Of a stretch of 63,229 nt of DNA, positions 6,101 through 63,229 are shown piece by piece. This DNA comes from Aplysia californica (taxonomy: Eukaryota): contig NW_004797581.1 of the NCBI RefSeq assembly GCF_000002075.1, forward strand, positions 62,001 to 125,229, in the 5' to 3' direction. A model generated the notes under the pieces. It was not told the origin of the DNA, made no database searches, and saw only the letters and a program-made list of their open reading frames with translations. The position numbers and the translations under genes were made by a program. The first letter of the stretch is position 1, and each line of letters opens with the position of its first letter.

Positions 6101-9100
6101 AGATATTTAAACTGTTGGACTTGTTTGATCTTTTCACGTTTGCTAATGAGATTACAACTAGGATTTGTTGCTTTTTTGGATATTACCATGCAATCTGTTT
6201 TCTTTACATTCAACAAGAACCTCTTAAAGTACCAAAATGTAGTATTTGTCTTTTTTTTACAGGAAATTCAATCAGGTTAGTTTTATTTTAAGGTGTGAAT
6301 TTCATTCAATACATTTCAGCATATTTACTTTTCTCGGAAAACTTTTGCATCCATTTTTTGTTTGTTCTTAACATTCCTTCTTCAGTTCTTTTATCTTTAT
6401 GCTTTCTCTAAATTTCAGTTTACTTGAGGCAAAGAATGTTTGTTTTGAAATTTGTCAATTTCAGCAGTGATTCACACCATATAAAATACTGAGATAAACC
6501 AGATAAGTATTCCAGTATATGTTTCAGTAACTGCAGTATTTAGAAATATCAGCAGCTGACTTTTTTTAAAGGCCAAATAGTGTTAAAACGTAAATTGGGC
6601 TTTGGTATTGAAGTTTTCAAGAACACTCAAGAGCTTCAAGAATAATTTATCCAAACTTTGAGAAAGACAAGCTCCATTTGTATTTGTAAGATTCAAAATT
6701 TTATTTCGTCTCTGTTTTTGTTTCATAACAGGTCGCAAGGTATATGAAGTACGGAAATAAAATGCTCTTTGTTGGAGACCTGGAAAGACACTTGAAAGAT
6801 CTGGATCACACTAAAGGTTTGTGGCTGTTGATCTGCTGGCAGTCTTTGATGCTTTAACAATTTATCTTCTGCTTGGCTATTGTTATTTTTGTCATTTGTG
6901 ATAGCTGGTTCATGGTGTTTAAAGCTATTTTTGATTTTGGGTCTACAAAGGATTTGCTATGTATTCAAGCGCTGAAGGCAAGCTGTAAATACTATTTTGT
7001 GGGGGGAGGGGGGTAACCAAACTCCCTTTTTTTTTAGTGTCTGGAACTTCATTAGACTGTAGTAGCACTTACCTAACTTTTTGTGGGTGTTTACTTTTTC
7101 TAAGACTCAACTATTTAATGTTTGCTGCGTGTTTCCCCTTCTAGACTGTGTTTGCCTTTCCTTTTAGACAGTCGTATACTATTTTCAAAGGTGCCCTTGA
7201 TTATATTACATTTTGTCAGTTTTTGGGAGACATTGAATTGAACATTTTTGTAACTTATAAATGCAGCCACCTTTGGCTAGTTTGTACTTTCAACCTCTTA
7301 CGTTTTTTTAAAGAAATAAGCAATGTACAAACAAGATGTCTTAAGTTTGCTGACCGTGTCAGACAAAACAGGATACTTGACGCCAACACCCGAGGATCAA
7401 TTTAATAATAATAATAATAATAATATATAACATTTATATAGCGCTTTTCCAAAAAAGTAGCTCAATGGGCTTTACATTGGAATACCAATTTTCAAAACCT
7501 TTCTTACTACTTCCTTTCTTCTCANNNNNNNNNNNNNNNNNNNNNNNNNNNNNNNNNNNNNNNNNNNNNNNNNNNNNNNNNNNNNNNNNNNNNNNNNNNN
7601 NNNNNNNNNNNNNNNNNNNNNNNNNNNNNNNNNNNNNNNNNNNNNNNNNNNNNNNNNNNNNNNNNNNNNNNNNNNNNNNNNNNNNNNNNNNNNNNNNNNN
7701 NNNNNNNNNNNNNNNNNNNNNNNNNNNNNNNNNNNNNNNNNNNNNNNNNNNNTAGGCACAGAACAACTGTAATAAAAAAAATAATGTTAAAAGCCTATGA
7801 AGTTAATGGAAAACCTGATGATAACTTCACAAGTGTTTGCTTGAACTTGAAATCAGATCTGGTGCTAAAGCATTAATGACAAGCTACCCATTTTTAAGTG
7901 ATCAGGCCAATTATCCTTTGTTCTGCGTTTATGAGGGAGCTTTTCAGCTTTATTAATGTGAAATGAGAGTTTCTCCTTCTCTCCTCCAGCTTGACTTATG
8001 TTTACCCGCTGTTGTCGGCTCCTGAGAGGGGGTGGTTGGCAGGTGCTCTGGTGTGGTTTGCTCTTTCTCTCCTATCAAACATTTATTATCTTATCCTCTG
8101 CTTACTATTTTCTTTGTTTGTTACTCCCTCGTAACTCCTGTAATCTTTGACACTTTAATGAGCCGTTTGGGTTGCAGTTGACAGTAAAACTCTTATTAAA
8201 AACTGAACTAAAACAACCCTTTTTGATGGGTGGTTGGTGGGTGCTCTGTTGATACCAATGCTGCTTCTTTCCTATCAAACATCTATCGTCCTTATCTCCC
8301 CTCCTTCTTTTTTATGTTTGTTACTCTCTTGTAACACCTCTAATCTTCTGGCACTCATATGACCTTATGCAGTTGCGAGCTCCATAAAACGAAAAACCCT
8401 TTTTGTTGTTATGTTTCAAGCCATGTCAGCAAAGAGTGACTTTTTGCTATGATTTGTGCTAATGTAGTGTAAAATAGTGGTAGTTCTCAGTGGACTAGGA
8501 TAGACAAAGCAATGTGGGTCATTTTAAAAGCTATAAATATTTTTCCTTTGAGAGTGCTATGTTATTGTTTGACCATAAATGGATTGTTCAAGAATAGCTT
8601 TTACAAATGATCAATGCTATGGCATTACTGAAAAAGGCAGTTACTTGACTATCAATGCACTCTCCGGGTTATATTAAGTTGGTAGGTAAGTTCTTCAGAG
8701 TTTTAATCTGGAAAGAAAAGAGATGCATAATATGTATTGTTGCCAACTTTTGCATATTCTGTAATATACAGTACATTCGTTTTGTCCTCAGGCTTCCTTC
8801 TAAATCAAGTTTCTAAAATGAGGCTTCGTGACTCCGAAGCTCCTGGGAATGGTCAGGATGTCCGCAAGAATGCGGAAAATGAGCTGTACAAGGGCTTGCA
8901 AACTATAAGACAATCCAGTATAGAAATACGGGAAATTCTCTCCATTCTCAAACCTCTGTTGGTGAGTGTTATAGAAACTGTTTGGAAGCAATGAGTGTGT
9001 AACCGATGAAACATTCATTCAAATAAAAAAGTTGTGTACACTTTTTAGCTACTGCAGTAAGTCAATGTCTACTTTTTCTTTTTCTGTGTTCTCCATGACA

Positions 9101-12100
9101 GACTATAAATCTGATGGTGCAAACAATGTTGTGTCTCATTTATGATTTATTTTTGTTGACCTGACAAAAAAAGTGCCCTATCTGTATACATTGTACGATT
9201 TTCCTTATCCTTCTGTGGAAGTGAATGACTTGACAGTGTGCTATATTTGTGTGGATCATTTTTGTTTTGTGTTCTTTCAAGGCCTTCAGTGTACCACAAT
9301 TTGATAAAACTTACAATGAACTGAAGTGCCGGGCTCCCTTACTGCTTTAAAAAAAAATTGTCTACTCATTATTTTGATTAGTTTGTTGGAGGATGCCACT
9401 GGTTGGTCCTACTTCTTTTCTTTCTCTCTATTGTTTCTGTTTAACTGTTTTGCTTCTTTCCAGCAAAAAATGACTATTTTTGTATGGATGTGCTTCTCTT
9501 TATTCAAACTCAAACTATAATTTGTTTGGAAGTTGTGGTCTTGGGATCCAAATTTTTTACCTTTTGGATATCAGTTACAGGTGAAGGGATATTAAATCAG
9601 AAATGTGTTCAATAATGGTAGTACTGAAATGTTACTGAGGCAATTTTTCTATGGGTCTGCAGGGTCATGTTGGGACAAAGTAATGTTTATAGTTATGGTC
9701 TGTAGGTGACGGAGATGGTTGCAATGATGGTGCTTGTGGTAATGATGAAAATAGTGCTGTTTATTTATTTTTCAGGCAGTGTTTTTCTGTGAATGTGATG
9801 TTTTAAAAAAGATTGCGTTTATGAGCCTTTAATATGAACTGCTTATTGTAAGAGTGGAGTACAATGTCATGCTGGTGTGGACATGATATTTTAATTTCAT
9901 AAGATGATTAAGGAATTTAACATTTATCCCATAACATATTTACTTTTGTCTGATATATGATAAACTTGAAGCTTGTAATCTACGAGATACTTAAATAAAT
10001 GAAGTTTTAACTCATCATCTATCTATTTCAGTCTGATAAGAAACTTGAAGCTCGTTTTCGTTTGTTGGAGGATCGGGCGTTTCAGTCGTCCAGTCAGTCT
10101 GGACAGGACAAATTGAGCCTGCAGGAAAACTGGTTTAATGATCTTTCTTCTCTGGATGGCTTGGACGTCAGATGTAAGTACACCATGCTCCTATTGTCAG
10201 CTGTGCAGTGTACACCAGTCAAAAGTAAATGTGCTGTAAAACATAAAGAGTTGTGCACTCCTTGGGTGCTGTATATACAAGCCCTGTATGTAGCAGTTTT
10301 TCTGGTCTGAAGAAGCTTAGCTGAACTGAGTCGTACAAGGCAATGGTACAGGAGATTACATTTTCATCTATGAATGCAGCGCGTTGAAGGTGTGTGCAAG
10401 ATATACAAAAAATATCTCTCTTGATCTCTTGACAAACAGAGAGCTGACGTTTTTGGTTCATTTAACTGGAACTATTTCTTTTTCTGTACAGCCTTTGCCT
10501 AATCTAAATATGGCGACATGCAATGACAGTGCCATGATATTAAGCCGCCTTGACCATACTGATTGTTTTGACTGGCATCTGGCTGTTTGCCATTGTTTTA
10601 TAATTTATACCCCTGTAGATGCAATTTAGATTATTTAAGTAGCTTGCAGTATTGTCTATCAGGACCAACATGGGCTGAGTGTGTTACAACGCCAGAGTGG
10701 GCAGATGGAGATACTCAATGAAGTAACTTTTCTATACTGGTGTCAAACTCAACTTCTTCTTTATATAAAAGTGAAAAGCCTATTAAATCAAGGACTACTC
10801 CAGTTTGAATAAATGCAATCAATTAGACTTGGAACAAAAGGAAGAGCTCTTAGAAGCTTTGTGATTAGCTCGAGCTTTTAAACTGATATCTTATGTCAGT
10901 ATGTTCTATGAGTATTGTATTCTTTTAGGTCAATAGTTGTCTCCTAGACAGTTTATCTTGATAAAAGGTTGATAAAAGAAACCAGGTCATGTGCAATGCT
11001 GATAACAAAGTCATTTGCTTGTTGTTTAAGATTGGAGTACGCCGTCTCAGTAGTGACCTTTGCCAGTGGGTTTTTTTTTCTTTTGTTTTTTATGTCCAAA
11101 AGTGTTATGAGCTATTTACATAAGTTGAAAAAAAAAAGTTTCAAAATTTGCTGTAGCATCTTTTACGTACAGTTTTTCCTTGTGCTTTTTCTGCTCCTTC
11201 TCCTCCTCCTTCGTGTTGCAACACTAGAGATCTTCACAAATGCTGAGGTCTGTCAAAGTGCAGTAGAGTCTGTCTTTAATTAAGGAGTTTTGACTCTGAT
11301 ACAACTTGATTCCAGTTAAGGCAAACTGCTGGTATAGAAAGCATTGTGCTTTACACTAGAAATGTCATACTTTTGTTTTTCTATGGGGGACCCAATGTTT
11401 AATATCTTAAGATTTGGAGAGGGGAGGATGGAGAGATCAGATATCATTTTCTTCATCTGAAATGTGTTGTAGCACTCTTGATTTTTCGAGAAACAAATAC
11501 TTATGTGCTCTACAGTCACGGATTTATGTCTCTTGAAACGAATTGTTTTGTCGGACCTGGGAACCACCATCCGTGGTTATAATTTTTAGGTTTTCCGCCT
11601 TACATACAACTGACGGAAATTTGGTCAGAGGGGAAGACAATAAATAGTCTGTTGAGTATCTATGTCTTTCCGCTAGGTTGACCTGCAGAACAGGACTTAA
11701 GCAATTGGCCTTCTTAATAATCTAAATGGGGTGGATGAATGGGTGGTTGGCGGGTGCTCCCAGGAAGCTGAGAATGTTTCTGAGTGTTCTGTTGTCTGTT
11801 GGGGTAATAATATAGTGTAAAACGCATAGAGCTTGCTGTAGAGCGGGGTTATGCGCTATACATATGCTATTTATTATTATTATTGCTTTGGTGTGGTTTG
11901 CTCTTTCTTTCCTATCAAACATCTATCGTCCTTATCTCCCCTCCTTTTTTGTGTTTGTTACTCTCTTGTAACACCTCTAATCTTCTGTACTTATTTGACC
12001 TTATTGTGTTGCAAGTGCCGTACAACTCTTTTTCAAAACAAAATGGGATGGATACCATTGAAATCTAAATTTTACATTGAGGACCAGTAAAAGTGATCAT

Positions 12101-28700: not shown

Positions 28701-31700
28701 TGAACCATCAGGGGCCTCTTGGCTTAACCGCTCAACCTATTGTTTGTATCTTATTTGACCAATGGGTGACCTTTCATACCAACACTCGCATTGTTAACAT
28801 GCGCACATGTCCAAACGTGTGTCAGGGTCAGACAGGCGGCTAGCTCTTGTGTGACTGTGTGTGTTTGTCTCGGGGAGGGGGCACAAGCAGTCCGGGCGTG
28901 GAATATCAGTAGAGATACAAACACGTCACAGTATTTTTGTTTTCCCCGGCTACTGATCAGTATTACAATGACAAGCTAGTATTGACATAGATCTTCTTAA
29001 TGAATTGCACGCTGGACTGTGGAACCAAATGTTCGGCAAACAATATATTGTAGATGATAAATGACATGAGCGTGCATTTGAGCGAATCGGCCTTTTTGCA
29101 CAGTGTGTGCTTGGTAGAGTTCAGTGTATTTTCCTGGAATTTTCCAGCGTTTCTTTGGTATGGCATCAAAGAAATGAAAATGCCTCTCATTTGAAACCAA
29201 ACTGCTTTTGATTGAGAAAGTCAAATACATTACGCATTACTTGCTCTGTGCCTGTAATTATTACACGAAAACCTCATGTTTTCTATTAAGTACACTCAGA
29301 TTCAATGAAATTGAAGGTCTGGCCCGACGGCTTTGTTGAATCCGAGTTCCACTGTATATATAGTGAGAGAATGTAATGCATCATACATATTTTGTGTCGT
29401 AGAAGCTAATGCATGCTCATTGTCACTTTATCCAATGTAGGATAGAAAAAAATTAACTGAAAAGTTTCCGTGTCGTAAAGAGGGTACCAGTCACAATCCA
29501 AATTTTGAAATAAGTTAAGAAAAATGTGTTTTACAATCTTCTGAACTCATCACATTTCACATGTTGTAATTCTTTGCTCTGATGTCTTGTTCGTGGTCCA
29601 TGTTTGGCAGTGATAAGTGAGAGTTGGGATGACACAGTAACAGTCCCTATAAAACAGTGTGCTGCACTATGAAGACCAGCAACGGCATGTTTGTAGTTTG
29701 TATTGGTGGGATATTACCATGTATCATCGCACCGGTGCCACTGACTTTAGTGTCTTTAGGCCATTCCCATAGGGGGGACACTTCTCGTTCATGCACAGTA
29801 GGATTTTAAATGGGCTGATTCATCAATGTCTCATAACTGTGCCTGATCTTCAACAGGGAACTGCTGCTTTTTCTTTCCTAATCCTTACTATGGTAATTTT
29901 TCCTTTACTTCTTTTGTATGTTTATCTCTCTCTTGTGACCCGCTATTTCCGGGGTGCCTTGAAAGCCAAAACAGACTTTGTGCTGTTGAAGCTAGAGAGG
30001 TGAGTAGAGTAAGCCTGATTCCCTGCAAAAACTTCACTGTTGACGTCCACCCCTTGGCGCTCATATGACCTTATGCAGTTGCGAGTGCCGTAAAACCTCT
30101 ACTAAATAAAAAAAATACCTCATCGTGTATAGGTCGCCACTCTTTATTAAGAAATTAGGGCTTCATGGTCGCCCTGTGTCTTATCCATAAGAGAAGAAAT
30201 CAGACCCAAAAAACCCAGTGGGGGCAGACCAAGGGAACAAAGTCTGTGGGCCAGGTAATGGGTAAAATATGTAAAGCTTTTGCCAAAAAGCATGTTTGTA
30301 GACAAAAGCTGTGTTTTATTTTGCTTTGAAGTACAGTTATTAATAAAAAGTCAACAAACAAAGGTGATGGTGCTTGCCATGAAAATATTGGTGTGTCTTA
30401 TCCGATGTACACATGATTTATACCTAAGTTTTTTCTCTCAAGTCTACCTGCTTATTATCCATGCATGAGTCCTATACGCAATGATATACAGTATGTATTA
30501 TATAGCAAGAAATTATTGTAAGTATGTTTGTAAGTGGTTTGGGGGGGGGGGGGGGTGCTCTGGTGTAGTTTGACCTTCTTTCCTATCAAACATTATCGTC
30601 CTTTTCTTGCCTTCTTTTTTGTGTTTGTTACTCTCTTTTAATACCTTCAGTCTTCGGCACTTGTATGACCTAACTGTGTTGTAGGTGCTGTAAAGCACTC
30701 CCTAAAGCAAAATAAATTGGTGTGTGTGCCATTGTAAACCAAATGTCCTAATTAAAATGATCTTTCAAAGGGTAATTTGTTTGTTTGTTTTATTTACTCA
30801 TTTGACCTGCCTCTTGTGTTTCCCCCAACAGGACATTGTATCCTGGAAGTGCTAGCCTCGTACGGTCACCTTCAGCACGTTGTCTTCAGTCTTCTTAGCG
30901 GCAGACCAGTGCTAGTGGCTGGCTCAGGCCGCTTTGAGGCAGAGGTGGTCAAGATGATCAACGCCTTAGCCATATTTGTGCCCGTTGCACGCAGGTAGAA
31001 TAATTGTATGAATTGCGCTGGTGAGCTAGGCACTCGTCTAGTCACTTGTACATATAAGCTGATAACAAATTCTGCTGATTTATCTTTTATTATTGGTGCA
31101 TATATAGGTACTTATGACCTTTCTTTTCTTGTTTGTTACTCTTGAGTCATTTTTATTCCGACCTATTGAAAAAAATAAGTCAGTGTGGAGGTCGGTTGTT
31201 TCCTTGATTTCTGTATCGAGATTGCAAAGTAAAAAGTTATTAAAATGTTTATATGATTTAATTCAAGCTTTTTCACTACCGTTTTCTCAACTATAATATT
31301 TACAAGCTATTGACCTCAATGCAAACAAGAAAAATGAAAGCCTACACCTGAGGAGTGGATGTGACTCATGCCTTATCTATTTTTTTCAGCTACCTTACAG
31401 AAACCCTTTTTTCTTTTTTTCAGGAGGCGACATTCTGTGTTAGAATGGACTTCCAAACCCCTTAGAATTGGAGATTTGACCAAACTTCGGCTTGTTGGTA
31501 TATGCAGGCCTGAGAGGAAAACTTTAGATTCTTTTGTCACAAGTGCCATCAAGGTCAGTATATCAAGGAAAGAAAGGATTGTCACAAGTATATTATGAGA
31601 TCATTGTTACCCCTTGACTGTGCTATCGTCCTATATCATATGTCTGTACAATCTGTCCCCCCCCCCCCCAGTGTTCTGTAAACATATCTTGTGCAGCAGC

Positions 31701-34700
31701 TTAAATGTTTTGTTTCGTGTTTCTTTGATATTTAAACTACAACCAAGTTTTGAATAAAGGGAGCGGCATCCCTTAAGAGCTTATGGTTTTAGCTATGAAG
31801 TCATCTCTGTATATAGACTTTTTGACTGAAACAGCAGGTGATTACCAATAAAACAAAGAAGGGTGTGTTATTTTTATAATGCACATTGTGCAAGACAGTT
31901 GGAGCGGACTTGTTTAATGGGAGTGCTTATTCAGTTTTGGTATTTTGAAGTTACTTTCATCGCTATGGCTTGATCTACCTGGTCATGTCAATGTACTAAG
32001 CTATCTATTCATTTATTTCTATTGATATATATATTATATATATAGTTTGACTGTCAGTAACAGGAAGCACGAGCTTTGTGACTGCTAAAACCAAGCGAGA
32101 TGTGTTGTTTGTCTTGCACGAGACAGAGATGGGGCCAGTGCGTTGAATCAGTGCGATTGTTCAGTTTCAGTACCTTTATATGGTTTACATCCTAATAGTT
32201 TGTTCTTCCCAGGTGTTGTCAATGGATGAGGTCATCTATTTATTTATCTTTTTATTGATATATAGTTTTATTCACCTGTCTCTTAAATTAAGAGAACAAA
32301 AGTCGATTAAAGATTGTGACCGGCATCTTGTGCACGATTGAGTTTTCCTTTGCATGTGGGGTGCAAATATATGGTTAGAAGTCAAGAGGTTAAGATAGTT
32401 GCTGGAGTTTTAAGAATTATATTTCTACAAATGCAGCTGGTTTTTTGTTAGGTGGAAATCTTTGCTTAAAGACTGTGAGTGATGAGTGTTTGTTGTAAAT
32501 GCTTGTTCATTTTTAAGAGAAGGGGGATGGAAGTATGTGTTGATTTCTTGAAGTTTAGATCATATAGGATAGAGGAGATAGTTGTAGGTGTGCATTTTAG
32601 AGACAGTGTGTTGCTTCTTTTTTTTTTTTAAGAGAGGACAATTCTGAACTGAGAGAAAAAAATGGGCGAAAGAGATAGATAAAAGTTGTAGTGTTTTGAT
32701 ATTATGCTGTGTACATGTACATTTTGTATGCTAGAAGCTGATGAAAGCACACTGTTATTTTCTTCCTGTGAAGGAACAGTGTGGTGTATCCTAAGTTATT
32801 TTTCTGATGCCTCTCCCACAATTGATAAATATGAATACATCTCTGACTTTGAGCGGCAAGCTTTTATTTTCTGAAGCAAAATGCTGGAAGGCCTCAAGTT
32901 TGCCGAAATTTGTTTGAGGGTGAGCACTGGTGACAGTATAGCCACATGCATTTGTTTTTACGAGAAAGGGAAGGATACAGATGTTGTACACAGGAGACAT
33001 GTTAATCATAAAGTGTTTCAGCATATGTTTGAATTTAATGTTTCTTCTTATTCTGTCCACATAGAGAGCTTGCACCATCATCGATGTGGAGAGGAAAGTC
33101 ATTATTGCACCTCCATACCAGGTTAGTTCGTTTTTTTCTTTCTTTTGATTTTTAGTGATTCCCAAAGAAATCCACACATAAAACCATTTTGACTCTTCGC
33201 TTACGGAAAGTAGCATTGTTGCATTATCAGTATAGTAAGGTATTGACAGTTAGTTACCAACAGAGCTGAGGACCAAGCGGCTTTGAATTATTAAAAGTAC
33301 AGGTAAATTCACTTCACTCAACTGAAATAAAAAGTAAGTAATGCTTTATTTCAAGTCCAACATTAACAAATTGTTTTGGAGAAAATCTTGAATTATCAAG
33401 TAAAATTTTGTGTGTGTGTGTGTGTGTGTGGGGGGGGGGTTGCCAATTTGCCTATATCAAGCTCACTGTATATGGTTGAGTCTCAGTAGTATTTTACTCT
33501 GTTGGTAAGAGCATAATGTCTAAATACAAGTCTGTCTGGATAAGAGTTATGATGGATCTGAATCTTAATTACGTCCTTTTTTTTTTTTTTTTGGATTCAC
33601 TTGATTTCAGGGTCATCTAATTACGCAGTTGATGTCAAAACGAAAGGTTTTAAAAACGGATGTTCAGTTTCTGGCTTATCTTGAGTGGTAAGTATCATGA
33701 TTGTACATTATCGTTACTGGAAAGATCCGTATAAGGTCCTGGGTCCTGGTTGAGACCCGGGTTCCTTTATTTGTTGGAGTAAGAGGGCATTGTTCTTTTG
33801 CCTTAATTTGTATCTCATGTTGTTCTGCTCTGTGTAACTGATTTTTTTTTTATTTTCAACTCGCAAAAGAAAGAACTTACTGATATTTAAATGATGAGAG
33901 AAGTCACCACATATGCCTATCCTCACTTTATTATACGACTTATAGCATGGAATGATCAATTCATACAGCATTGTTGTTGAATAAAAATGAAAAAAACTTT
34001 GATACTCCTAAATGGAAATCATAATGTGAATCTTAAACATACGCAATTAGCTGCATCTGTTTGGTCTTAAAGTGGTTGAAATGGTTTAAATATACTGAGA
34101 AAATGTCATCTTTTCTGCTCTTTGTTAACATTAATTCTTTTCATCCCTTAACACCTGAGAATGGATTAGTTGAAGTTATATTATCTTTTATTGTACTTAA
34201 CTAGGAATAAAACTTTGTAAATGTGTATTTAGGTGGGAATGCATTTGTTTCAACTTATTGCCTGTTCAAATTTCAATGTAATGATGCTCTCTTTATAATG
34301 GCTGTAAATGAATATACACAAAGTAGTACCTGTAACTTTCTTTGTGTTAAGATTGGGATAGAATTGTAGTTCCACTCAGTCATCTGTTCACCCCCCCCCC
34401 CCCCCCCCCCCCCCGGGGCGGTGCCACTGATTGTAGTGTCTTTCAGCCATTCCCAAAAGGGGGACATTTCTCGTTCAAGCACAGTAGAATTGTAAATGGG
34501 CTGATTCATCATGTCCTGCTCATAACTGGGCTCGATATGCAACAGGGAACTGCTGCTTTTTCTTTCCTAATCCTTACTATTGTCATTTTCCTCTACTTCG
34601 TTCGTATGTTTGTCACACTCTTTTGACCCGCTATTTCTGGGGTGCCTTGATAGTCGAAGCAGACCTTGTGCTGTTGAAGCTAGAGAGGTGAGCAGAGTAA

Positions 34701-37700
34701 GTCTGATTTACTGTAAGGACTTCTCTGTTGACACCCACCCCTTGGCACTCATATGACCTTATGCAGTTGCGAGTGCCGTAAAACCCTCTACTAATTTTTT
34801 TTAAAAAAGTCATCTGTTCTTTGCTTTTCAGGTGGCTCATGGACATATTTGCCAAAGTGTTCATATTCTTTCATTCCTTTTGTCTTGGATCAGCAGGAAG
34901 TATACTTTAGTAAGTGACCTTTTTCCCCCCACCTTTATACTTTTGAGTTCAGTCTTGTGTATTTGCAATTTCCATCTATTTGACCCGTCTTTTCTAAATT
35001 GTATACATGCAGAAATGTTTTAAAAAAGAAAATGTTATAACTATTATTAGAACTCATTTTATTTGAACTCTATCTTTCTCTTGAGACTTTTCAGATTAGC
35101 CTTATAAAGTAAAGAAAAACACATGTCAGAAAGGGTTTTAATGCTTAATGAAAAAAAGAGCCTGCAGTATTCAGAACTTACCTCTTAGACATGCATTTTG
35201 TTCGTATCTTATATAAATTTTGTAGTTGTATTAATAAAATTTTCCCACCCTAAGAAGATGTGATTCTTTTTATGCTTTTCTGGGTTTTTTTGTCATGGCC
35301 TGTCCCTCTTTTGCACTGTTATTCAAGCGCAAATTGTGTTGGTTTTTTTTTTTTCAGGAACATGTTTCTTATTTTTCTCAAAGCATTGATTGTACAGTCA
35401 CCACAGTTTTTAACCTCCTCTCCTCTGCCTCAGCTCCCACAACCCGAGAGACCAGCGTGACGCCTACGGCCAGACTGTCAGTGGCATCATGACCAGGTTG
35501 GAGGTCAAAGACTCGGACTGTGAGATTGTGGAGGTCAGTTTTGTGGCAGTGATAAAGTGAGAGTATGTGAACATATACTTTTTTATTGCATTTTGATGAA
35601 CTAGACACAGATTTACCTAAGCGTCTAACCGCTACACCACAGCGGTTAGGCGCTTTGCTGTTCCACAAGTTTGATTCCTGAGAGGGGAGAAAATTTTCAT
35701 TTAGTATCTCTGTCTTTCTTCCGAGATGTATCCGTCTCAGTTCGGGTTGGCCCTGACAGGCAGGGTCGGAAGCCCACCTTGTAAATGATCCAAACTGTAT
35801 CTATAGGGGCATAAAGAAAACCTACATTTTGGTTTTAGAAAATGACATTGAATTGGAGATTTTGATGTCGAAAAACTAGGTCCCGTGTATGAAATGCCTC
35901 AAAAGGACTTCTTCAAGTTGTGACATTTTTTCTCAGTGACACACATAAAATATGTCAGGACGGTTAAGAACTAATCCAGACCCTTTTCAGATTTAAGCTT
36001 TACTCTTCTTCATGTTGAATTCATAACTGACTGTGTCACATTCACAGCACTTTTCCTAAAATTTATAAGTATATAAAGAGTAAAGTAGCTTAGATGCTTG
36101 CAAATAATTTTAAAATCATACCAGGCCCCCCGGGGTAGTGCCACTGACTGTAGTGTCTTTAGGCCATTCCCAAAGGGGGGACATTTCTTGTTCAAGCACA
36201 GTAGAATTGTAAATGGGCTGATTCCTGTCACGCTCATAACTGTGCCAGATCTACAACAGGGAACTGCTGCTTTTTCTTTCCTAATCCTTACTATTGTCAT
36301 TTTTCCTCTACTTCTTTTGTATGTTTGTCACTCTCTTGCGACCTGCTATTTCCGGGGTGCCTTGATAGTTGAAGCAGACCTTGTGCTGTTGAAGCTAGAG
36401 AGGTGAGCAGAATAAGTCTGATTCCCTGTAAAGACTTCTCTGTTGACACCCACCCCTTGATGCTCATATGACCTTATGCAGTTGCGAGCACCGTAAAACC
36501 CTCTACTATAAAATAAAATTTAAAAAATCATACCAGACGTACTGTTCAAACCAAAGTGATGTGCCTTTTTCGGCATGGGTATATGGTATGACTTTGATAG
36601 CTTTACCATTGAAAACCAATATCGTAACTAACTATATTTATAGTAAAATTATTCATGTGACATTGTACTGCATCTGTACATCTATTCCCTCCATTTCCAA
36701 TGAATTTGATTGTGATGATTATCTCTTATACATATATGGTTGATGGGTAGGGCCTACTCTGGAAAGTTTACTCCTACTTTTTTATTCCAGGGTCACTGTT
36801 TTTTTAATTTTTTTTCTTGGGCAAAATATGGCTGTTATTACTCTGACTCTACTCAACTTGCAGCTCTTTATTTTATTGCTCAATACATAATTGTATGCAG
36901 ACCTCATGTGGACATTGTTTGCAAAGTGCAAAGCTGAAGGTCAATCACAGCATTTTCACCATTTTCACCATTTTCATGTGCTCTAGCCCTGCATGCAGTT
37001 AATAGTTTCTTATAAGAGGGCACCACCAGTAGATATATGATCCTTCTTTTTTTGCCATCCCTTTGTGGCAGTTTCTCTCTGTTTGTCTTGCTTCTTTCCC
37101 TGTACTAAATGACTGTTTTTCTGTTGATGTGTGTGGGTGGTTAGCGGGTGCTCTGGTGTGGTTTGCTTCTTCTTTCCTATCAAGCATCTGTCGTCCTTAT
37201 CTCCCCTTCTTCTTTTTTATGTTTGTTACTCTCTTGTACCGTAACAGCTCTAATCTTCTGGCGCTCATATGACCTTATGCAGTTGCGAGCGCAATAAAAC
37301 CTCTACTAAAACTAAAACTGTTGATGTGCCTCGCTTGGACTGGAACAAACTCTAACCTAAGTGGATTACCCCTTATTCATTTCACAGTACTTGACTGAGG
37401 TGGCTAAAATTTCTAGATTGGAGCCTCATGTATGGCATGGATCAGATCCAGGTGAGAGAATAAACTTCTCCTTTTTTTTTTCTTTCTTACTCTTGTTTCT
37501 TCTTTTTCTTTCTTTTTTTCTTCCTTTACTTTTTCTTCTTTTTTCTCACTTTACTTTTTCTTCTTTTTTTCTTTATCTTCTTTTTCTTCGGATTTCCCCT
37601 CCATTTATTGGTTGATCGACTCTAAATGGAACTTACCCCTTCCCCTTTCAGTCTGCTTGTCTTTATAAGTAATGCTGATCAGATTTTTTTCATACACTTT

Positions 37701-40322: not shown

Positions 40323-40500
40323 TGGGTGGTTGGCGGGTGCTCTGGTGTGGTTTGCTTCTTCTTTCCGATTGAACATCTATCATCCTGATCTTTCCTCCTT
40401 CTTTTTTATGTTTGTTACTCTCTTGTAACACCTCTAATGTTTGGCACTTATATGACCTTATTGTGTTGCAAATGCCGTAAAACTCTTACTAAAACTAAAA
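40323..40500 (+). mobile_element. Short retroposon family A
   Basis: Head, body, tail and (CTAAAA)n end. Confidence 0.88.
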
Positions 40501-42037
40501 TAGTTCCGTTATGTAGATAAAACTTGAGGGGGGAATGGAAAGTAGCTGTTTGTACAGGTGGCCGTCTTAACAGATTTTACTGTAATTATCTCATTCCATA
40601 TGTGTTGCATCATATGATGCGATGAACAAGACCCATATTGATATTCCGTGTTGAGGGAAAAATACTCCCATGATCTACATTCAACAACTGTTCTGTCATT
40701 TAGTTATGTTCCTCCTTTGATAGTCTTGACGAGAATTTTTTATCTTTGACATTATCAATGCGACCCTCATCATGTCAGTCCCCGTCTAGTCAAGATTGGG
40801 AAATTTGGGCTTTAAAAATGTGTGAAGAATAGCTTATTTTTATGAATCACATCTTTTTTTTTCACTTCATGACTTTGAGCCGTACTTATTATGAAAGAAG
40901 AGATATTGACGTTTAATGTGTTATATCATGATGTTCAGTGTAGATCACTTAAACCGAGAATGATTAATCTGAAAATAGTGGTAATCCGAAAGAATACAGA
41001 ATCTCCGCTGTGTAAAAAAAACTACTGATTGGCGAAAATGCTCCTTTTTCTAAAATGAAAAGAATTTTGAGGATTATGTCTTCTCATTTTTCACTAGAAA
41101 TTCAAGTAGTGTAAATCATATAATGTAACATGTTTCAAATGAGGAAACAAAAGAGTTACAAAGATGCATGCGAGTCGATTTTGGGTCAGAGAGAAACATC
41201 GCCGGTGTACTGTTAACCTACTTTTATGACTCACATTGATTGACCTACGCACTGTGTATAGGCTATTGAAACTAGAATTATGAATGTATGTCTGTCACTT
41301 GACTTTTTGGTGGGTCATGACCTATTGTCTCTGCGAAGCTAGTTCCCATATGAGGAGTCTATTAAAAAAACAGACAGTCACAATTCTGGAAAATGAGAGG
41401 ATATCAATTTTAAGATTTTATAGACTCTAAACTGCATTTCTTTTCGACTTTTTATTATTATTATCATTATCGTTGTTATTATTATTATTAATTGAATAGG
41501 AAATCAAAGAAAAATAATCGATTGACTGTCGAATAGAAATGAAGTCGAGAAGTTTAAAAAAAATTGATGTCCCCCTCAATTTCTATTTGGTGATATTGCC
41601 CGTTTTTCATGTGAACGTGTTACTAACATCAGGTCTTATCAATATCACTTCTTTAGCGGGCAAAACGCTTTACAGTTTAGTTCAACGTGCTGATCTACTC
41701 TTGCAGCTATTCTGCGTGACTGTTCGGTGGATTAACTTTTTAATATGTTCAGAGCCGCACTCTGCATCAGGCAGTTTTTCCTATATATGTGCTTAGAGCC
41801 ACACACTACGGCACTGAAATCGATGACGTGTAGTAATGTGAAAAAATCATTTTCTGTTGTGAAAAATTAATTATTAAGTTTCTCCAACTACCGCCACACC
41901 TTTGCCAAATGTCCAAAACTTTATATTGGCATTATATCATTCGTATCCATGGTTTCAGTGACACAGGACGTGGCTCCTATCAAATATCTATTTATCATGT
42001 GGGGATGTAATTTTTAAAATGTAAGGCATATAGGCTA

Positions 42038-44250: not shown

Positions 44251-44440
44251 GTTGGCAGGTGCTCTGATATGGTTTGCTCCTTCCTTCCTATCAAACATGA
44301 TCTATTGTCCTTGTCTCTCATCCTTTTTTTTCTGTTTGTTACTCTTTTGTAACACTTCTAATCTTCAGCACTATTATATGAAATATGATGTGACTGTTGC
44401 AAGTGCTGTAAAGCTTTTACTACAAAAATTACAGTAAGCA
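44251..44440 (+). mobile_element. Short retroposon family A
   Basis: 10-bp TSD AACATGTTTC at 44241-44250 and 44441-44450. Confidence 0.85.
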
Positions 44441-47253: not shown

Positions 47254-47745
47254 GGGGCTCTCGTGGTCTAGAGGATAAGGTGTTCACCTCTCATTCAATA
47301 GGTCCCGGGTTTGAATTGGGAAAGCGACAGAAATTTTTCTTCTCTAAAAACTTTCTCCTTTCACATCCTGTTCTGCTTTCTAACAATGTTCTGTCGTCCG
47401 TTTTCGTCTCCCCTTTCTGCCCACACCCCCTCACCTCCTTTGCCCACTCCTGTGGGCTCCTGACTCTTTCTACGGCCTTTCTACTGCCACTCCTTGGCTC
47501 CGTCTTTCTGCTGTCACTTACCCCTGATCTAATGGTAGATAAGATCTACACCTAGCCTGCTTGGATGAGGGCAAAAAATCTCGGAGGTCCTGTGTGCAAC
47601 ATTCCTTGATGGTCCATAACCTATAAAAGTGGGCTTCAGCGGCCACCCAGGCAAAATTCGAAATTTCCTACCAACTTAAAATGTTTACTGTGTCCCACGC
47701 GCTCACATGACTTTAAGCAGTTGAGTCCGTCATAAAACACTTATG
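47254..47745 (+). mobile_element. tRNA-headed SINE family C
   Basis: A box TGGTCTAGAGG, degenerate B box, shared tail (decayed). Confidence 0.82.
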
Positions 47746-47914
47746 AAATAAAAAAAACAACCCCCTACACAAAAAAACCACACGCCCAAAAATAAACCAA
47801 CGCAACAAAAAGGATGTTCCCACGTTTTGTTTGTTTGATACATCTTCATGCACTTTCCCTGCAGTTGAAATTTGATTAGCAGAATATTCGTTGGGCCTAC
47901 GTTGATTTGTATGT

Positions 47915-51451: not shown

Positions 51452-52669
51452 CTACTCTAAACAGTTGGACAACAAATAAATAGGCCTAAAGATGCTTCCC
51501 GCATTTAAGAACGCTTCTAGACTTTGATAGCGTTGAGCCGTGCAAAGAAACCTATAAAATGCTAGCGTCTGTGGTAAACAACAATTATAGCTTGCTTATT
51601 AAAACTAGGCATGCATGAACAAAAGTTAATGATATAATATTATATATTGTAACTAATACTGAAAGTGTAACGACCGACCGCACAAAACAAATAAAATCAG
51701 CAGAGGGACAAAGAAATAAAAATGCTATTGGCTTTTCAGAACATATTTAGGTTTGGTTATAGTTTAGTCATGCAAAGAGGACTATAAAATATTGCACCTG
51801 TGGTCAAACACAATAATGTATTAGCTGCTACAAGTAGGCAGGTTCAAAATCTAATAGATTTAAATTATACCTAAAAGTAAGAGCGTATAGACCGCCCGCC
51901 GAAGTCACCTAAAACAGTTGGCAGACAAAGAAATTTAAAGATACTTCCCGCATATTTAAGAACGCTTCTACTTCTAGACTTTGACCGGACCATCAATGAT
52001 TTATTTATAGAGGCACCAGCCATCCATGTCCAGGTGCTGTTTTAGCCTTTCTAGACTTTGATAGTCTGATAGAGTAGAGCTGTTCAAAGAAACCTAGGCT
52101 AGCATCTGTGGTAAAACGCAATAATAGCTTGCTTGTTAAAACTAATAAAACTGGGCATGCATGCACAAAAGCTAATGATATAATATTATATATTGTAACT
52201 AAATATTGAAAGTGTATACGACCGACCGCACAAAACAATAAATAACATCAGCAGAAGGACAAAGAAATAAAAATGCTACAGGCTTTTCAGAACACATTTA
52301 GGCTTGCTTAGAGTTTAGCCATGCAAATAATCCTATAAAATGCTAGCACCTGTGATAAAACACAATAATGTGTTGTTTGCTACAACGAAGAAAGCCCCAA
52401 ACAAAAGCTTATAGAGTATAACCAAAACTGGAACTGTAATGACCAACCACGCAAGCTACTCAAAACAGCAGGAGGACAAATAAATAAAAATTCATCCCGC
52501 TTTTCAGAACACATCGAGACTTTTATAGAGGTTAACCTTATACTGGTAAAGAAGCATAAAATACTAGCACATGTGTTAAAACACGATAATGCGTTGATTG
52601 TTGCAACTGGGCTTCCACAAAAGCTCATAGATTATAAACAAATCAGAGAATGTAACGATCGACTGCATA

Positions 52670-55600: not shown

Positions 55601-56911
55601 TACAGCTTCTTTTATAGGGGCTTCAGATTTTCTGGTAACACATTTGACAAGTTTATGAACTTTATTGGTTCCCTTGCTGTCATGTGTCCATTCAGTAGTC
55701 TTTTCATAGAAAAGGCATTGAATAGGCTAGAGGCGTGTTGAAAATGATTGCTTTACTTTTTTCCTAGTGGAGCAAGAACCTTCTAGTGCTGATTTGTCAG
55801 ACTCTCCTGGTGAATGCCTTTTTCTTAGACTCCTCAACGTGGTGAATGTATTGTAGCAGTAATCATGAAACCCATGTTGAGCAGAGTCAAACTCAGTCTG
55901 TATTCTTTCACAAATTGAGGATAGTCTATCACTGTCAGTTTCTGCAAGTCACCGTTGTGTTTTTGATTTTTGAATGGTGTCCCAGCGTCTCTCAGTGTCA
56001 GTGAGAGGTTTTGTTTCATCATGGCCTTTGCAGTTACAGTCTGAGTTATGCACTACTCATTGTCCTTTCTTCAAGCTGTTCTTTCTTTTGAGATTTTGAC
56101 CTGTCTTTCTTTGATGTCAAGGGAACTGATTTCAGTTCTACCTTGCTTAATTTAGAACATTCCAATCATTCTCTGAAGCATACTCGTATACTTGTATAAA
56201 GAAAATTGTACATTGCTAGAAAAAGCAGACTTCAAATTTTTCACCTCTGTCTTCTTTTAAATTAGCTTTAACTAACAAAATGTTTTTCAAGACTCCTTTA
56301 TCATGCCCATATGATTGATCTAGACTATATCTGAGACAAAAGTACTCATGCCGCCTTTTTGACGTTTTTAAAATGACGTGCGGCAGTTTTGTATTTTTTC
56401 AATATAGCAATAGCAAGGGTCATAACTCCTTAAATCATAGTTATTTTGCACAAAATCCTTCTCATTTTGTGCCTCAAACTTTGAGTCAAAGTGTGTTCCT
56501 ATCAGAAAACTATTGTACCGGGTTATAGAAGATCTGAAGCAATGGAATTAATCATTTCTATAGATTTTGAGAAATCAGCCTTTGAATTTTCTTTTTTCCT
56601 CTCTGCACCTTGTAATTAATTAGTAAGAATTTTTTTTTTTACAACATTTACAATACATCATCTTATAATATTTGAGTTTTACATCATATGAAAGTATACA
56701 TTTTTGGCTTCACAGAGAACCCCAACATAAAAATCAAGTGTTTTCTTAATTTCTGGACAATCAAGGGCCGTAACTCTGTAGATTGCCAACATTTTGGTGC
56801 AAACTTTTTTGGGGGAAATCCCTAGGTCCTACCCTTTCAGAAAATCATGGTGGCGAAAAATCCCCAGGGGGGGGGGGGGGGGCAGGTTCACTCCCAGTAG
56901 CCCATAGCCTA
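52670..56911 (-). mobile_element. Degenerate Academ (AcademX-type) DNA transposon
   Basis: Termini TAG(A/G)CTATGGGCTACTGG; ~140-bp imperfect TIRs; 3-bp TSD ATA (52667-52669, 56912-56914). Minus-strand relic ORFs carry DNFDLNEE..G.GTTH.THG and XPG/PIN-like SHEEADT, SPGTDV, LHAFFGC, KGKVKP, FICHLYG, PDPKDHGW. Confidence 0.85.
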
Positions 56912-57597
56912 ATACGTTACTCAAAACAGTTGGACAAAGAAATAGAATACCTCCAGTTTTTTATAACACAGTAAGTTTTGAATTTTGACAGATTTAGTTG
57001 TGCACAGAAAACTATAAAATGACAGAACCTGTGATTAAACAAAATACTTTGTTGTATTTTACAATTAGGCATCCACAAAAACTAAAACATAAATAAAACA
57101 AAAAGTGTTTCGACCGACCGCCCAAGTTACTCAAAATTGTAAGAATTCAGTCATAAAAATACTTCCAGCTTTTTATAACACAGTTAGTTTCGATAGAGGT
57201 TAGCCGAGCACAGATACCTATGGAATACCAGAACCTGTGTCAATACATGATAGTTTGTTGGTTTTTACAATAAGGCATGAAGAAAAACTAATAGATTATC
57301 ACCACCAATGCAAAAATTGTAACCGACCCACTACTCAAGTTACTCAAAACTGTAGGAGGACAAAGTAAGTAATAAGGATATTTACAGCTTTATAAAACAC
57401 ATTTAGATTCGACTGCGTTTAGCCGTGCTCAGAAACGCATAAAATTTTAGAACTGTGTTAAAACATATTACTTTTGCTAATTAGCAAAAACTAGAAGATT
57501 ATAGCCAATACAAAAAGTGTAACGACCGACTGCCCAAGTTACTCAAAATTGTAGGAAGACAAAGTAATTAAGATACTTCCAGCTTTTCATAACACAG

Positions 57598-59826
57598 TGC
57601 AACTGCATAAGGTCATATGGTCGCGCGAAATAAGTTGGGTTTTTTTTCGAAATAGCTCACTGCTCGGCCTGATTCTTGTCAATATTAAATTACTAATTAA
57701 ACATTTTTTAAACGCAAAAAATCGAGTGTAAATAGATTTTTATAAAACAACTTTCTAAATAACACTGAAAAGTTTCAAACACAGGGTTGGTGATTTTTTT
57801 GATTTTTTAAATAATTTTTAAAAATCGATTTTAAAAAATTTAAATCAGATTTTTTTTATTTTTAAAAAAATGTCGAGTTTGGGATTTTTGGTGGCTAAAA
57901 GTATGATCTTTTAGTGCAGAATGCATTGTCTGTATTTTAACTAATGATTAATATAAGCAACTGCAAAAGAAAGCCTTAATCTGCTATTATCAGTGAATTA
58001 TGGCTACAGACAAAAAATGAAGAAAATGTCAGTCTAAAAGGAAAGGGGGGAAGGGGGTAATTATGTATAGATAAACTTGTATTTTATTACAGTGTGCGTG
58101 TGTGTGTGCGCGCGCTTGTGTTTGTCTAAAAAGAAAAAGAAAATGCTAATTTCAATTATGAAAAAAAAGTAAATTGAATACTGTATTAATTTACTACTTA
58201 CAGTGACAGGGGGGAAAGCAGACTTTTAAGCATGATTATATTAGTCTACTAAACCTTATATCTGTTTTATAAAACCAAGGAAAGGAATTCTGAATGTTTA
58301 AAGACGTAAAAACAATACATTTTTTTAAAGTGATTGAAATCACTGAGGTTTATTTTTAAAATCAAGTTGATTTAAATTTTTAAAAATCAACTGATTTAAA
58401 TCAACCCAACCCTGGTTTTCAATTATGAAAAGAAAGAAAATTGAATACTGTATTATTTTACAGTGACAGGGGGGAAAGCAGACTTTTAAGCATTACTTTA
58501 TTAGTCTACTAAACCTTATATCTGTTAAATAAAACCAAAGAAAGGAATTCTGAATGTTTAAATATGTAAAAACAGAATACATTTTAAAAAAGTGATTTAA
58601 ATCACAAAATCAAGTTGATTAAAATAAAAAAATCAACTGATTTAAATCAACCCAGCTCTGATTTCAATTATGGGGAAAAAAGTAAAATGAATACTGTATT
58701 ATTTTACAGTGAAAGCAGACTTTTAAGCATGATTATAATAGTGTACTAAACCTTATATCTGTTTTATGAAACCTAGAAAAGGAATTCTGAATGTTGAAAT
58801 ATGTAAAAACTGAATAAAAATAAATTTAAAAAAAAGTGATTTAAATCACTGATTTTTATTTTAAAAATCAAGTTGATTTAAATTTAAAAAATCAACTGAT
58901 TTAAATCAACCCAACCCTGTTCAAACAATCAATTTCTATAACTTCCCATAAAGGCCAATGGCCTTCATAAAATCTAAAAGTCTGGGAACAACGACGGAAA
59001 AAATATCTTTCAATTTTTTTTAAAATTTAAAGTATTTCCTTCGGGTCTCTCCGAAGTCTTAGACATTCGGTTAAAATGAGTCTAATGGTAAAATCTGTGT
59101 CACATCCAACACAGAACGGCTTCTCATCTCCCTGAAGGAGGTATTTGTGTGTTAGGGCCATGTGTCCGATGTGTAATCAAGTAAAAATGACTTCGTCTCT
59201 TCTGGAGAGGTCCGAAGGATTTCGCGGTCCCAGTTTGGGTTTAATATTATGGAGTTCGTTAATGTTATTTGTTTTGTTTTTTCCAGTGGCTCTCCCAGTC
59301 TGGAAGTGTACTTTTTTACTTTATTTTTAAAAGTCAGTCGTTGATCCAACAGAAGGGATAAGGATTTCTTCTCCAGGTCATCTACCCTCTCGCTTCCTCG
59401 GATGCCCACATGGCTAGGTATCCATGCGAACACAATACTTTTCCCTGTTTCAGTCAAGGCGTGTATTTTCTGTTGTAACCTATTTTTGGGTGTAGGAGAG
59501 TGTAGTTTGTGAGTGAGGTGATGCAAGACACAGTCAGAAAGGATAAGGAAAGATTTGTTAGGAGAATTTTCTACGGAGTCCAGTGCCATGTCAATGGCAC
59601 TGGACTCCGCAGAGAAAATGGAGGCTTCAGGATGGAGTCTCCCCTGGTGTGTACTGTTTGAAGATAGGGCTGCGGCGCCCACATCATTGTCTTTTTTGGA
59701 GTCATCTGTGAAGATAAGCTCTGCACCAGGGTATTTTTCTTCTATAAGTTTTTTGTATTCTACTCTAAATGTTTTGGTGTTTGTGCTTGCTTTGTCGTGT
59801 GTGGTCAGCTGTAAGTCTACAACGCA
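57598..59826 (-). mobile_element. 5'-truncated I-group (I/Nimb-like) LINE: RNase H, zinc knuckle and 3' UTR, split by a hAT MITE
   Basis: IFTDDSK, SIFSAESSAI, ILSDC, FAWIPSHVGIRGSERVD, then LLQGDEKPFCVGCD and FMKAIGLYGKL-stop (~58938); the UTR ends in CATATGACCTTATGCAGTTGC. Confidence 0.88.
57782..58919. mobile_element. hAT-type MITE with a triplicated right end
   Basis: TIR CAGGGTTGG / CCAACCCTG; 8-bp TSD TTCAAACA at 57774-57781 and 58920-58927; three ~250-bp internal units. Confidence 0.9.
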
Positions 59827-60441
59827 TTGCAAAAGAAACAGAGTGAAAGAGAAAGAAGAGGAAAAGACATTATTATTGATTAAGTACAACAACTGTAGAT
59901 GTACTTCTGCTTTTGACCACAGGGAGTGAATCTCCAGCCAGTGAGCAACAGAACGAGGTTAGTAAATTCAGTTAACCCAATCGCAACAGGGACAGCATCA
60001 CAAGGGACTATATTATACAATGACAAAAAGCACACAAATCAAAGAGACTAAAACCTGAACACACTTCTGGTTGATTCCATGCTTCATTTCTTTATTATTC
60101 GCTTCTCCCCTCAGTGCTCAGATTGTACCAATTGAGGGACATTTTCCAAAATACAAATCTTAATTTTCCTAGATAACACCCAAAAATGTACGAAATGCGT
60201 ACACTATTTCACACACCAGAGAAATAAACTGTGTGCCTCTCTATAACCAAGAATGGAATTTATTTACAAAAGGATCGAAATGCCAATCAAATTTCACACT
60301 AGCTGGTAAAGACTTACAGTAGTTCAATCTATATCATTTCTACCATCCAAACATTCACAACATCACTGAATTCAATACAATAGTCAGATGTTGCAAACAA
60401 ACACAATCACTGCCTGCTAGCTACCTCCTGGAGAAAATGAA

Positions 60442-62111: not shown

Positions 62112-62648
62112 TTTTTGTTTTGTTTTTTGGTAAGTGTTTTATGGAGCTCGCAATGCATAAGGTCATATATAAGCGCGCAGGACACATTAAACATTTGCGG
62201 TTGGTAGGGAATTTTGAATTTTGCTCGGGTGGCAGCCGAAGCCTACTCTTATCGATTTTAGACCACCAACTGATCTTTAACGTACGCAACTTGCACATGA
62301 GACCTCCGTAATTTTTCGCCCATGTCCGAGAGAAAGCTAGTTGTAGATCTTTCCGACCAAAAGATCAGGGGTATGGCTGAAAGGCAGCTGTTAGAAGGAG
62401 CTAAGGAGTAGCAGTAGAAAGACTGCAGAAGAAAGAAACAGGATCTCAAAGAAGCGGGCAAAGGAGATGAGGGGGCGGGGGCAGAAAGTGGAGACGAAAG
62501 CAAACGACAGAATATTGCTAGAGAGCAGGAAAGGAGGTGAAAGGAGACAATTTTACAGATGAACATTTTTCTGCGGCTACCCAGATTCGAACCCGGGACC
62601 TCCGAATGAGAGGCAAACACCTTAACCTCTAGGCCACAAGAGCCCCCC
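62112..62648 (-). mobile_element. tRNA-headed SINE family C (best-preserved copy)
   Basis: A box TGGCCTAGAGG, B box GGTTCGAATCT, shared stem-loop tail. Confidence 0.88.
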
Positions 62649-63070
62649 TCCACGTTAATCCTGAAAAAAAACCCCAACCCAACATCATAGAGCTCTAAAC
62701 CGACCCTGCAATACCATTCTTCTATGAACTTGCATAAATTTTTTCAAGAACATCATGAAGACCTGAATAAAATATAAATTGTTAACCATCTGCGTGCGGG
62801 TCGTGATGACTCATACTTCCCTTCCGCTCGTATCACGACATGAGAGTAGAAACTATACTGCTGACATGAGAATAGCCATTTTTTAAACTGCTGGTGACTA
62901 GTCCACTAGTGCAACGTTTATTAGTTCCGTTGGCCGCGCATTTGGGAGGTTTTTTTAATCAGATATTGTTCAGTTTTCAAAATGTTGGATTCGTCAGCTG
63001 ATTAGACCTGCATGTGAGCCTTGACCAGATTGTCTGAAAATTTTGCACACCCCCCCCCATAAGAGCTTTT

Positions 63071-63229
63071 GTAGTAGTAGTAGTATAAGGTTTTACGGCG
63101 CTCGCAACTGCTAAGGTCATATGAGCGCGCGAAACACAAGTTGTTCACCTCTGCGAAAGTTCACTTCACGACTGGTAACTAGTTTACTTTAAAATGCTAA
63201 AAAGTTAAAATATTCAAATTCGGTGTAAA
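63071..63229 (-). mobile_element. 3' end of another element with the shared tail (probably the same LINE group)
   Basis: Reverse strand reads GCGCTCATATGACCTTAGCAGTTGCGAGCGCCGTAAAACCTTA(TAC)n; adjacent bases resemble 57620-57665. Confidence 0.75.

What the first reader, a model, noticed from the sequence alone, without database searches (positions are those of the whole stretch)
8340..63135. One stem-loop tail shared by three short families and by a LINE present in the same window
Seen: GCRCTYATATGACCTTATGCAGTTGCRAGYGCCRTAAAAC ends family A, family B and the tRNA-headed family C, whose heads are unrelated. Its core (CATATGACCTTATGCAGTTGC) also ends the 3' UTR of the RNase H-encoding LINE at ~57598-57625, which is only apparent once the hAT MITE is removed, and the motif recurs at 63090-63130. 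Established: stringent LINEs mobilise partners through a shared 3' stem-loop. Inference: one I/Nimb-like LINE drives a guild of at least three parasites (about 16 copies in 63 kb) that recruited the tail modularly.
Basis: partly seen in the sequence, partly recalled or inferred. Interest (0 to 1): 0.72.

Follow-up and report, generated by a model that had tools for sequence, protein, structure and literature searches.

The report
Jumping gene's hairpin shared with hitch-hikers
Three families of short repeats end in the same ~45-letter hairpin as a long retrotransposon that still has intact copies, so it likely copied them around the genome (a known kind of partnership); unusually, two thirds of its sampled youngest insertions consist of little more than that hairpin, which may be how the short repeats picked it up.

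Summary
Confirmed. Sixteen short elements (A 10, B 3, C 3) and two LINE 3' ends in the window share one ~45-nt tail. Intact ~5.9-kb copies exist (ORF1 with zinc knuckles; 1226-aa endonuclease-RT-RNase H ORF2). The tail resembles a published bivalve Nimb tail; no RT tree was built.

Corrections: A and B are partly related (78 bp, 78%). C is a tRNA-headed Nin-domain SINE. Six of ten A copies carry an older loop variant (A2) with a compensated stem, for which no LINE was found. The 63.1-kb motif is a young LINE end.

New: 38 of 58 young LINE insertions start inside or at the base of the hairpin (29 at the base), mostly with target-site duplications. SINE-LINE homology starts at the same point. 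The LINE's loop later changed, and 0 of 30 sampled new-loop sites were SINEs.

One Nimb-type LINE serving several SINE families is published for molluscs: a new member of a known kind, with a testable extra.

The parts
8026..8203 (+). Family A copy, degenerate tail
8226..8395 (+). Family A, subtype A1 (LINE-type loop), with TSD
11884..12044 (+). Family A, subtype A2, 5' part missing
14726..15267 (-). Family C: tRNA-headed Nin-domain SINE
16269..16447 (+). Family A, subtype A2, with TSD
17298..17468 (+). Family A, subtype A2
27846..28027 (+). Family A, subtype A1, 14-bp TSD
29733..30114 (+). Family B (~385 bp, no tRNA head)
30541..30714 (+). Family A, subtype A2, diverged
34409..34794 (+). Family B, 12-bp TSD
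36126..36518 (+). Family B, 13-bp TSD
37134..37317 (+). Family A, subtype A1, 11-bp TSD
40323..40503 (+). Family A, subtype A2
44251..44430 (+). Family A, subtype A2, diverged
47254..47770 (+). Family C copy
57598..57781 (-). Distal 3' UTR of the old LINE copy with the tail core, cut after the loop
57782..58919 (-). Inserted element (hAT-like MITE by its 8-bp duplication and inverted ends) with internal ~237-bp repeats, splitting the LINE 3' UTR
58937..59820 (-). 5'-truncated old LINE copy: RNase H and C-terminal part of ORF2, 84.7% to intact copy L180
62112..62649 (-). Family C copy; tRNA-like head at 62572-62643
63075..63229 (-). 155-bp 3' end of the youngest LINE subfamily (shortened loop, (TAC)n end), 98.7% to L180

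Best explanation
A, B and C are non-autonomous retroposons that end in the 3' hairpin of one I-group (likely Nimb) LINE lineage, which has intact copies in this genome and likely mobilised them by binding that hairpin. Shown: the shared tail, TSDs, intact LINE copies, a ladder-like LINE tree whose loop changed over time, SINEs that keep the older loop, and an excess of hairpin-only LINE insertions. Inferred: ORF2p binds the stem-loop and primes target-primed reverse transcription on the short terminal repeat, in cis and in trans. The SINE bodies probably gained or replaced their tail through the LINE's own truncation product, which stops at the base of the stem, either by template switch at that point or by a hairpin-only insertion into a transcribed body. 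A1 is probably A2 with a replaced or updated tail.
For: 25 of 29 LINE copies end in the motif about 200 nt after ORF2. 5 of 8 long copies have an unbroken 1226-1227-aa ORF2, and 5 of 8 show the common 5' end. Domains: endonuclease, RT E 6e-39, RNase H. TSDs flank 6 of 13 window SINE copies tested, and B has a fixed 5' start in 30 of 30 loci. Census: 107 tails in 292,731 non-N bases (A 57, B 16, C 17, LINE 1, unassigned 16), reversed control 0. Stem: 85.7% of cells paired, 3 of 7 pairs with a change on both sides, slid controls 25-55%. SINE-LINE homology is confined to the last ~50 nt. Young LINE 5' ends: 29 of 58 lie 20-32 nt before the search pattern (the stem arm starts at 25), 9 at 5-12, 0 at 13-19, 2 at 33-100, 18 beyond (p 8e-18 against uniform). 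The class also exists in the older subfamily, 8 of 26 events. One young hairpin sits inside an A body (L249). Stem and loop recognition is shown for zebrafish L2 LINEs (PMC4176376, abstract).
Against: No retrotransposition or binding assay. Folding support is uneven: z -3.0 (A1), -1.9 (B), -1.6 (C), but 0.16 (A2 window copy), -0.57 and -0.25 (young LINE). The covariation rests on essentially two inherited variants, and 3 of the 4 stem changes are CpG-type transitions; 17 of 500 shuffles reach the score. No LINE with the A2 loop among 30 + 30 loci. At most 12 of 107 census tails lack a family body, so SINEs mostly read through the same hairpin and a plain RT stall at the stem does not explain the LINE's truncation. 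12 of 70 young sites were dropped for N at the 5' end, mostly longer copies. No promoter was identified for A or B.
Confidence: 0.85

Rival explanations
1. Two or more related Nimb-type LINE lineages drove the guild: an older, unfound LINE for A2 and this lineage for A1, B and C.
For: A2 is the oldest group (median 8.7%) and has its own loop with 10,405 exact sites. A second I-group LINE, about 65% identical, has a tail of the same shape whose 3' half resembles A2 (L075).
Against: 30 of 30 A2-loop loci are family A. 30 of the 54 A2-loop sites in non-A context gave no ORF2 match upstream. The L075 tail is not identical to A2.
Confidence: 0.4
2. The tail passed from SINE to SINE and was taken from the LINE only once; A and B are descendants of one non-autonomous element.
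For: A1 and B tails are 96% identical over 53 nt and share the first stem base that differs from the LINE, and A and B share a 78-bp segment. SINE-to-SINE tail capture is in print (title of Matveev et al. 2007 in the reference list of PMC4824008).
Against: C shares a few extra bases with the LINE at the stem base that A1 and B lack, and each family has its own sequence after the stem. C has no body homology to A or B. Two captures seem the minimum.
Confidence: 0.45
3. The tails are passive: hairpin-only LINE insertions landed at the ends of repeats that spread by another route.
For: Hairpin-only insertions are common and one lies in an A body (L249).
Against: The tail sits at a fixed position at the 3' end of tens of thousands of copies (22,767 and 10,405 exact sites), TSDs enclose body plus tail, and no terminal inverted repeats were seen in the alignments.
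Confidence: 0.02

Closest known systems
Bivalve V- and Meta-SINEs partnered with Nimb LINEs (Martelossi et al. 2024, PMC11481361; passages and supplementary file 4 read)
   Same: One LINE clade's 35-61-bp tail shared by several SINE superfamilies. The S.constricta_0 I/Nimb tail has the same layout and core motifs as this tail (by eye), and the LINE length is similar (~5.8 kb).
   Different: Those partners are all tRNA-headed; here two of three families have no tRNA head. The passages I read do not mention hairpin-only insertions or loop turnover.
LP-SINEs sharing body and tail with tRNA SINEs (Matetovici et al. 2016, PMC4758252; sections 10 and 12, passages, supplement searches)
   Same: Non-tRNA-headed short retroposons sharing a tail with Nin-domain tRNA SINEs in molluscs. 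A Haliotis SINE tail there has the same loop-opening motif.
   Different: Their partner LINE was unidentified; here it is found intact. The A and B heads do not match the 5' UTR of either LINE examined, so they are not shown to be LP-SINEs.
[quoted passage not shown]
   Same: Family C has a tRNA-like head with A and B boxes and a central block that matches the printed Lottia_Nin sequence by eye.
   Different: The consensus of the published sea-slug Nin-DC SINE was not seen, so identity with it is untested.
Stringent L2 LINEs UnaL2/UnaSINE and ZfL2 (Kajikawa and Okada 2002, seen only as a citation; Hayashi et al. 2014, PMC4176376, abstract)
   Same: 3' stem-loop plus short terminal repeat shared by LINE and SINE; stem recognised generally, loop specifically.
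   Different: Different clade (L2; no RNase H, recalled). Stringency is not shown by experiment for this I-group element.

Membership tests
I-group non-LTR retrotransposon | ORF2 with APE endonuclease, RT and RNase H | tested here: met
   on P0001
I-group non-LTR retrotransposon | Separate ORF1 with CCHC knuckles (feature recalled) | tested here: met
   three CCHC motifs read directly in P0002; Pfam only E 0.06
I-group non-LTR retrotransposon | Variable TSDs, short tandem-repeat 3' end, 5' truncation | tested here: met
Nimb clade | RT groups with named Nimb elements in a tree | not testable with these tools
   no named Nimb reference among the 120 listed of 3397 hits; no tree built
Nimb clade | 3' tail like published Nimb tails | tested here: met
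   by-eye match to S.constricta_0 I/Nimb; the other Nimb tail shown there is less alike
tRNA-derived SINE (family C) | [quoted passage not shown] | tested here: met
   boxes found; Rfam tRNA 24.2 bits, E 0.011, below gathering 29; ARAGORN 0
Nin-DC SINE superfamily (family C) | Central Nin domain | tested here: met
   by-eye comparison of the C majority with Lottia_Nin; no alignment score computed
tRNA-derived SINE (families A, B) | tRNA-like head with A and B boxes | tested here: not met
   no B box in A or B, only a loose A-box match in A; no tRNA hit in Rfam
LP-SINE (families A, B) | Head derived from a LINE 5' UTR | tested here: inconclusive
   no clear match to the two LINE 5' UTRs in hand; 30 of 30 B-head loci continue as B; other LINE families not surveyed
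Stringent SINE-LINE pair | Shared 3' stem-loop and overlapping activity | tested here: met
   met for A1, B and C, open for A2
Stringent SINE-LINE pair | Tail required for mobilisation in trans | not testable with these tools
   needs a retrotransposition assay

The most novel reading that the evidence does not exclude
This LINE mass-produces a ready-made ~60-bp tail cassette: its commonest product stops at the base of its own recognition hairpin. These cassettes, or template switches at the same point, are how unrelated RNAs become SINEs. The LINE then changed its loop by steps and left its SINE guild holding the old key.
Probability: 0.3. Interest if true: 0.68.

Novelty: new member of a known kind. 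Interest (0 to 1): 0.42.

Why it matters
The partnership itself is expected, but this is an unusually complete case: an intact, recently active I-group LINE, three or four dependent families of different make-up and age, and a dated series of loop variants. That makes tail recognition testable outside the L2 clade with natural variants. The pile-up of 5' ends at the stem base offers a concrete route for how SINEs acquire LINE tails, which PMC4824008 calls unknown.

Tried and rejected
- A second hairpin upstream of the tail as the cause of the stop: folds no better than shuffles (z 0.97, 0.59, 0.46).
- A or B heads from this LINE's 5' UTR: no match above shuffles; the B head reached 20 against a 95th percentile of 21.
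- Ribozyme at the B head or LINE 5' end: no credible Rfam match.
- Faster change of the endonuclease-RT linker with the loop change: 9 of 222 shared differences against 5 of 288 in RT and 12 of 132 in the C-terminus; two old copies only, inconclusive.
- LINE escape from A1: not supported or excluded; A1 copies reach 0-2% divergence on only 163 bp.
- Expression: no listed holder was on record as RNA. PolyA reads of 3 runs from 1 study lie on L180, mostly 95-99% alike, uneven and thin over ORF1; the strand convention is unknown, so a full-length transcript is not shown.
- Loop labels in the tree are wrong for L158, L160, L169, L175 and L176; loop states are taken.
- One search used a structure shifted by one column and was redone.
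- opened an unrelated paper; PMC2705964 is not held.
- Earlier findings of the scan: none.
Full report
Observation. The 20-nt core occurs 10 times in the window within 3 mismatches, against 0.00 in shuffles, and 22,767 times exactly in the genome, control 0. Self-BLAST and alignments resolve ten copies of a ~180-bp family A, three of a ~385-bp family B and three of a ~540-bp family C. All end in the tail followed by a short A-rich repeat; 6 of 13 copies tested have clear target-site duplications. The ORF at 59152-59958(-) is an RNase H. An insertion at 57782-58919 with an 8-bp duplication splits its 3' UTR. With that removed, the 3' end aligns to three other copies at 88-91% over about 340-350 nt. 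The motif at 63.1 kb is a 155-bp end of the youngest LINE subfamily, 98.7% identical to an intact copy, with no continuation beyond the window.

Corrections. A2 has 10,405 exact sites. A and B share a 78-bp CT-rich segment at 78%, well above shuffles, while C shares nothing but the tail with either. C has a tRNA-like head with A and B boxes and a central block that by eye matches the Lottia Nin domain printed in the supplement of PMC4758252. A and B have no B box, and their heads match neither of two LINE 5' UTRs in hand. Their promoter is unexplained.

The LINE. Of 29 other copies fetched with the ORF2 end (the best 30 of 40 scored, one being the window's own), 25 carry the full tail within 5 edits. 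Three of the four others have lost part of the hairpin between intact flanks and one is interrupted. A protein search found open frames up to full ORF2 length. Of 8 such regions fetched, 5 have an unbroken 1226-1227-aa ORF2 and 5 show the shared 5' end; the copies are 93-99% identical over the aligned lengths. ORF2 has endonuclease, RT and RNase H; ORF1 has three CCHC knuckles. This is the I-group layout (recalled). The 120 best of 3397 homologues carry no clade name, so Nimb rests on the likeness of the tail to a bivalve Nimb tail.

The stem. The tail folds as a 7-8-bp stem, with z from -3.0 (A1) to 0.16 (one A2 copy). Over 12 distinct tails 85.7% of cells pair, and 3 of 7 pairs show a double change. 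A1 and A2 differ at four stem positions that form two compensated pairs. These are two inherited variants, three of the changes are CpG-type, and 17 of 500 shuffles reach the covariation score, so this is moderate evidence.

Census and ages. In 40 stretches of 10 kb (292,731 non-N bases) a tail profile found 107 sites: A 57, B 16, C 17, LINE 1, unassigned 16; reversed control 0. Half of the stretches were chosen where exact core matches were dense, so the density is not a genome mean. Median CpG-free divergence from the family majority was A1 3.4% (n 30), B 6.1% (18), C 8.0% (18) and A2 8.7% (44). The tree of 57 LINE ends is a ladder, with terminal branches near 4% at the old end and 1% at the young end. 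Along it the loop goes from the SINE-type form (copies 85-92.5% to the youngest) through a one-base substitution (91.5-95%) to a one-base deletion (two copies at 91-93%, the rest from 94.7%), and the end repeat changes too (59 rows, about two thirds with a readable loop). Of 30 sampled sites of the 1,306 with the new loop, none is a SINE. The best nearest-neighbour identities were 97.2% (B), 97.0% (C) and 98.0% (A1), against 99.2% for young LINEs. This fits SINE expansion under the old loop, but does not show that the new loop excludes them.

Hairpin-only insertions. Many new-loop sites were ~60-bp insertions with TSDs. To avoid selecting for that, I searched with the 3' half alone (1,033 exact sites) and read 70; 12 were dropped for N at the 5' end. 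Of 58, 9 start 5-12 nt before the pattern, none at 13-19, 29 at 20-32 (the 5' stem arm starts at 25), 2 at 33-100 and 18 further up. Among the 40 that start within 100 nt, 29 in 13 positions has p 8e-18 under a uniform model. Counting all 12 dropped rows as long still leaves 29 of 70. In the older subfamily (355 exact sites) 30 rows gave 26 events after removing 1 N row and 3 duplicates: 8 at the stem base, 5 inside, 13 longer (two rows corrected by eye); the difference from the young set is not significant (p 0.15). Hairpin-only copies with A2 and C tails exist, but at most 12 of 107 census tails lack a body. The stop is therefore mostly a property of the LINE RNA. A second upstream hairpin is not supported. 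A tail RNA that is cut or trimmed back to the protein-bound stem remains an untested candidate.

Mechanism. Inferred from L2 work (PMC4176376, abstract): ORF2p binds the stem-loop, nicks the target and primes on the terminal repeat. The same tail on A, B and C lets them use it in trans. SINE-LINE homology begins at the stem base, where the LINE's own copies most often stop, and one young hairpin has landed inside an A body (L249). I therefore favour capture of the tail through this truncation product. Whether A2 used this lineage is open.

Prior knowledge. One LINE clade serving several SINE superfamilies, Nimb included, is reported for bivalves (PMC11481361, passages and supplement 4). Shared tails across mollusc SINEs are in PMC4824008 (passages). 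Non-tRNA-headed elements sharing tails with Nin SINEs are in PMC4758252. PMC5804259 and PMC11203168 were seen as passages. Searches for this tail in a gastropod, or for stem-base truncation or loop escape, gave no paper that describes them. The library lacks most subscription journals and Repbase, figures were not visible and one supplement file was not searched, so families A and B and this LINE may already be catalogued.

Verdict. It is a new member of a known kind; the hairpin-only class and the loop series are the parts a specialist would want to follow up.

Noticed in passing
window 26868-27206 (+); partial copies at 15391-15597 and 11758-11884: A fourth SINE family with a tRNA head and a different tail; its head and core resemble by eye the CORE SINEs printed in PMC4758252's supplement. 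Not part of the hairpin guild.
   Followed up: partly
L075 oriented ~880-6710: A second I-group LINE, about 65% identical, with long ORFs, nearly the same first ~60 nt of 5' UTR and a tail of the same shape but other sequence.
   Followed up: partly
L181 1047-1436: A 5' UTR piece of the second LINE family is joined directly in front of a full-length copy of the first, inside one apparent TSD: a possible template-switch chimera.
   Followed up: no
L259 (G000:C14:1981190-1981635): Ten head-to-tail 47-bp units made of the 3' half of the tail plus the target site; smaller tandem doublings at L196/L197 and L237/L238.
   Followed up: no
L027, L034, L040: Three LINE copies have lost part or all of the hairpin while keeping both flanks; L034/L072 is full length with a TSD.
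   Followed up: no
window 48480-49870, 51450-52670, 56910-57600: Arrays of a degenerate ~210-bp repeat; two of them flank a decayed coding region at about 53400-56050 (-) with inverted ends at 52690-52822 and 56741-56873, probably a DNA transposon; no Pfam match.
   Followed up: no
window 24312-24842 (+): Weak RT match (E 7.5e-4) with no DNA match to the LINE studied: a fragment of another retroelement.
   Followed up: no
window 19711-20982 (+): A 423-codon open frame without a credible Pfam match.
   Followed up: no
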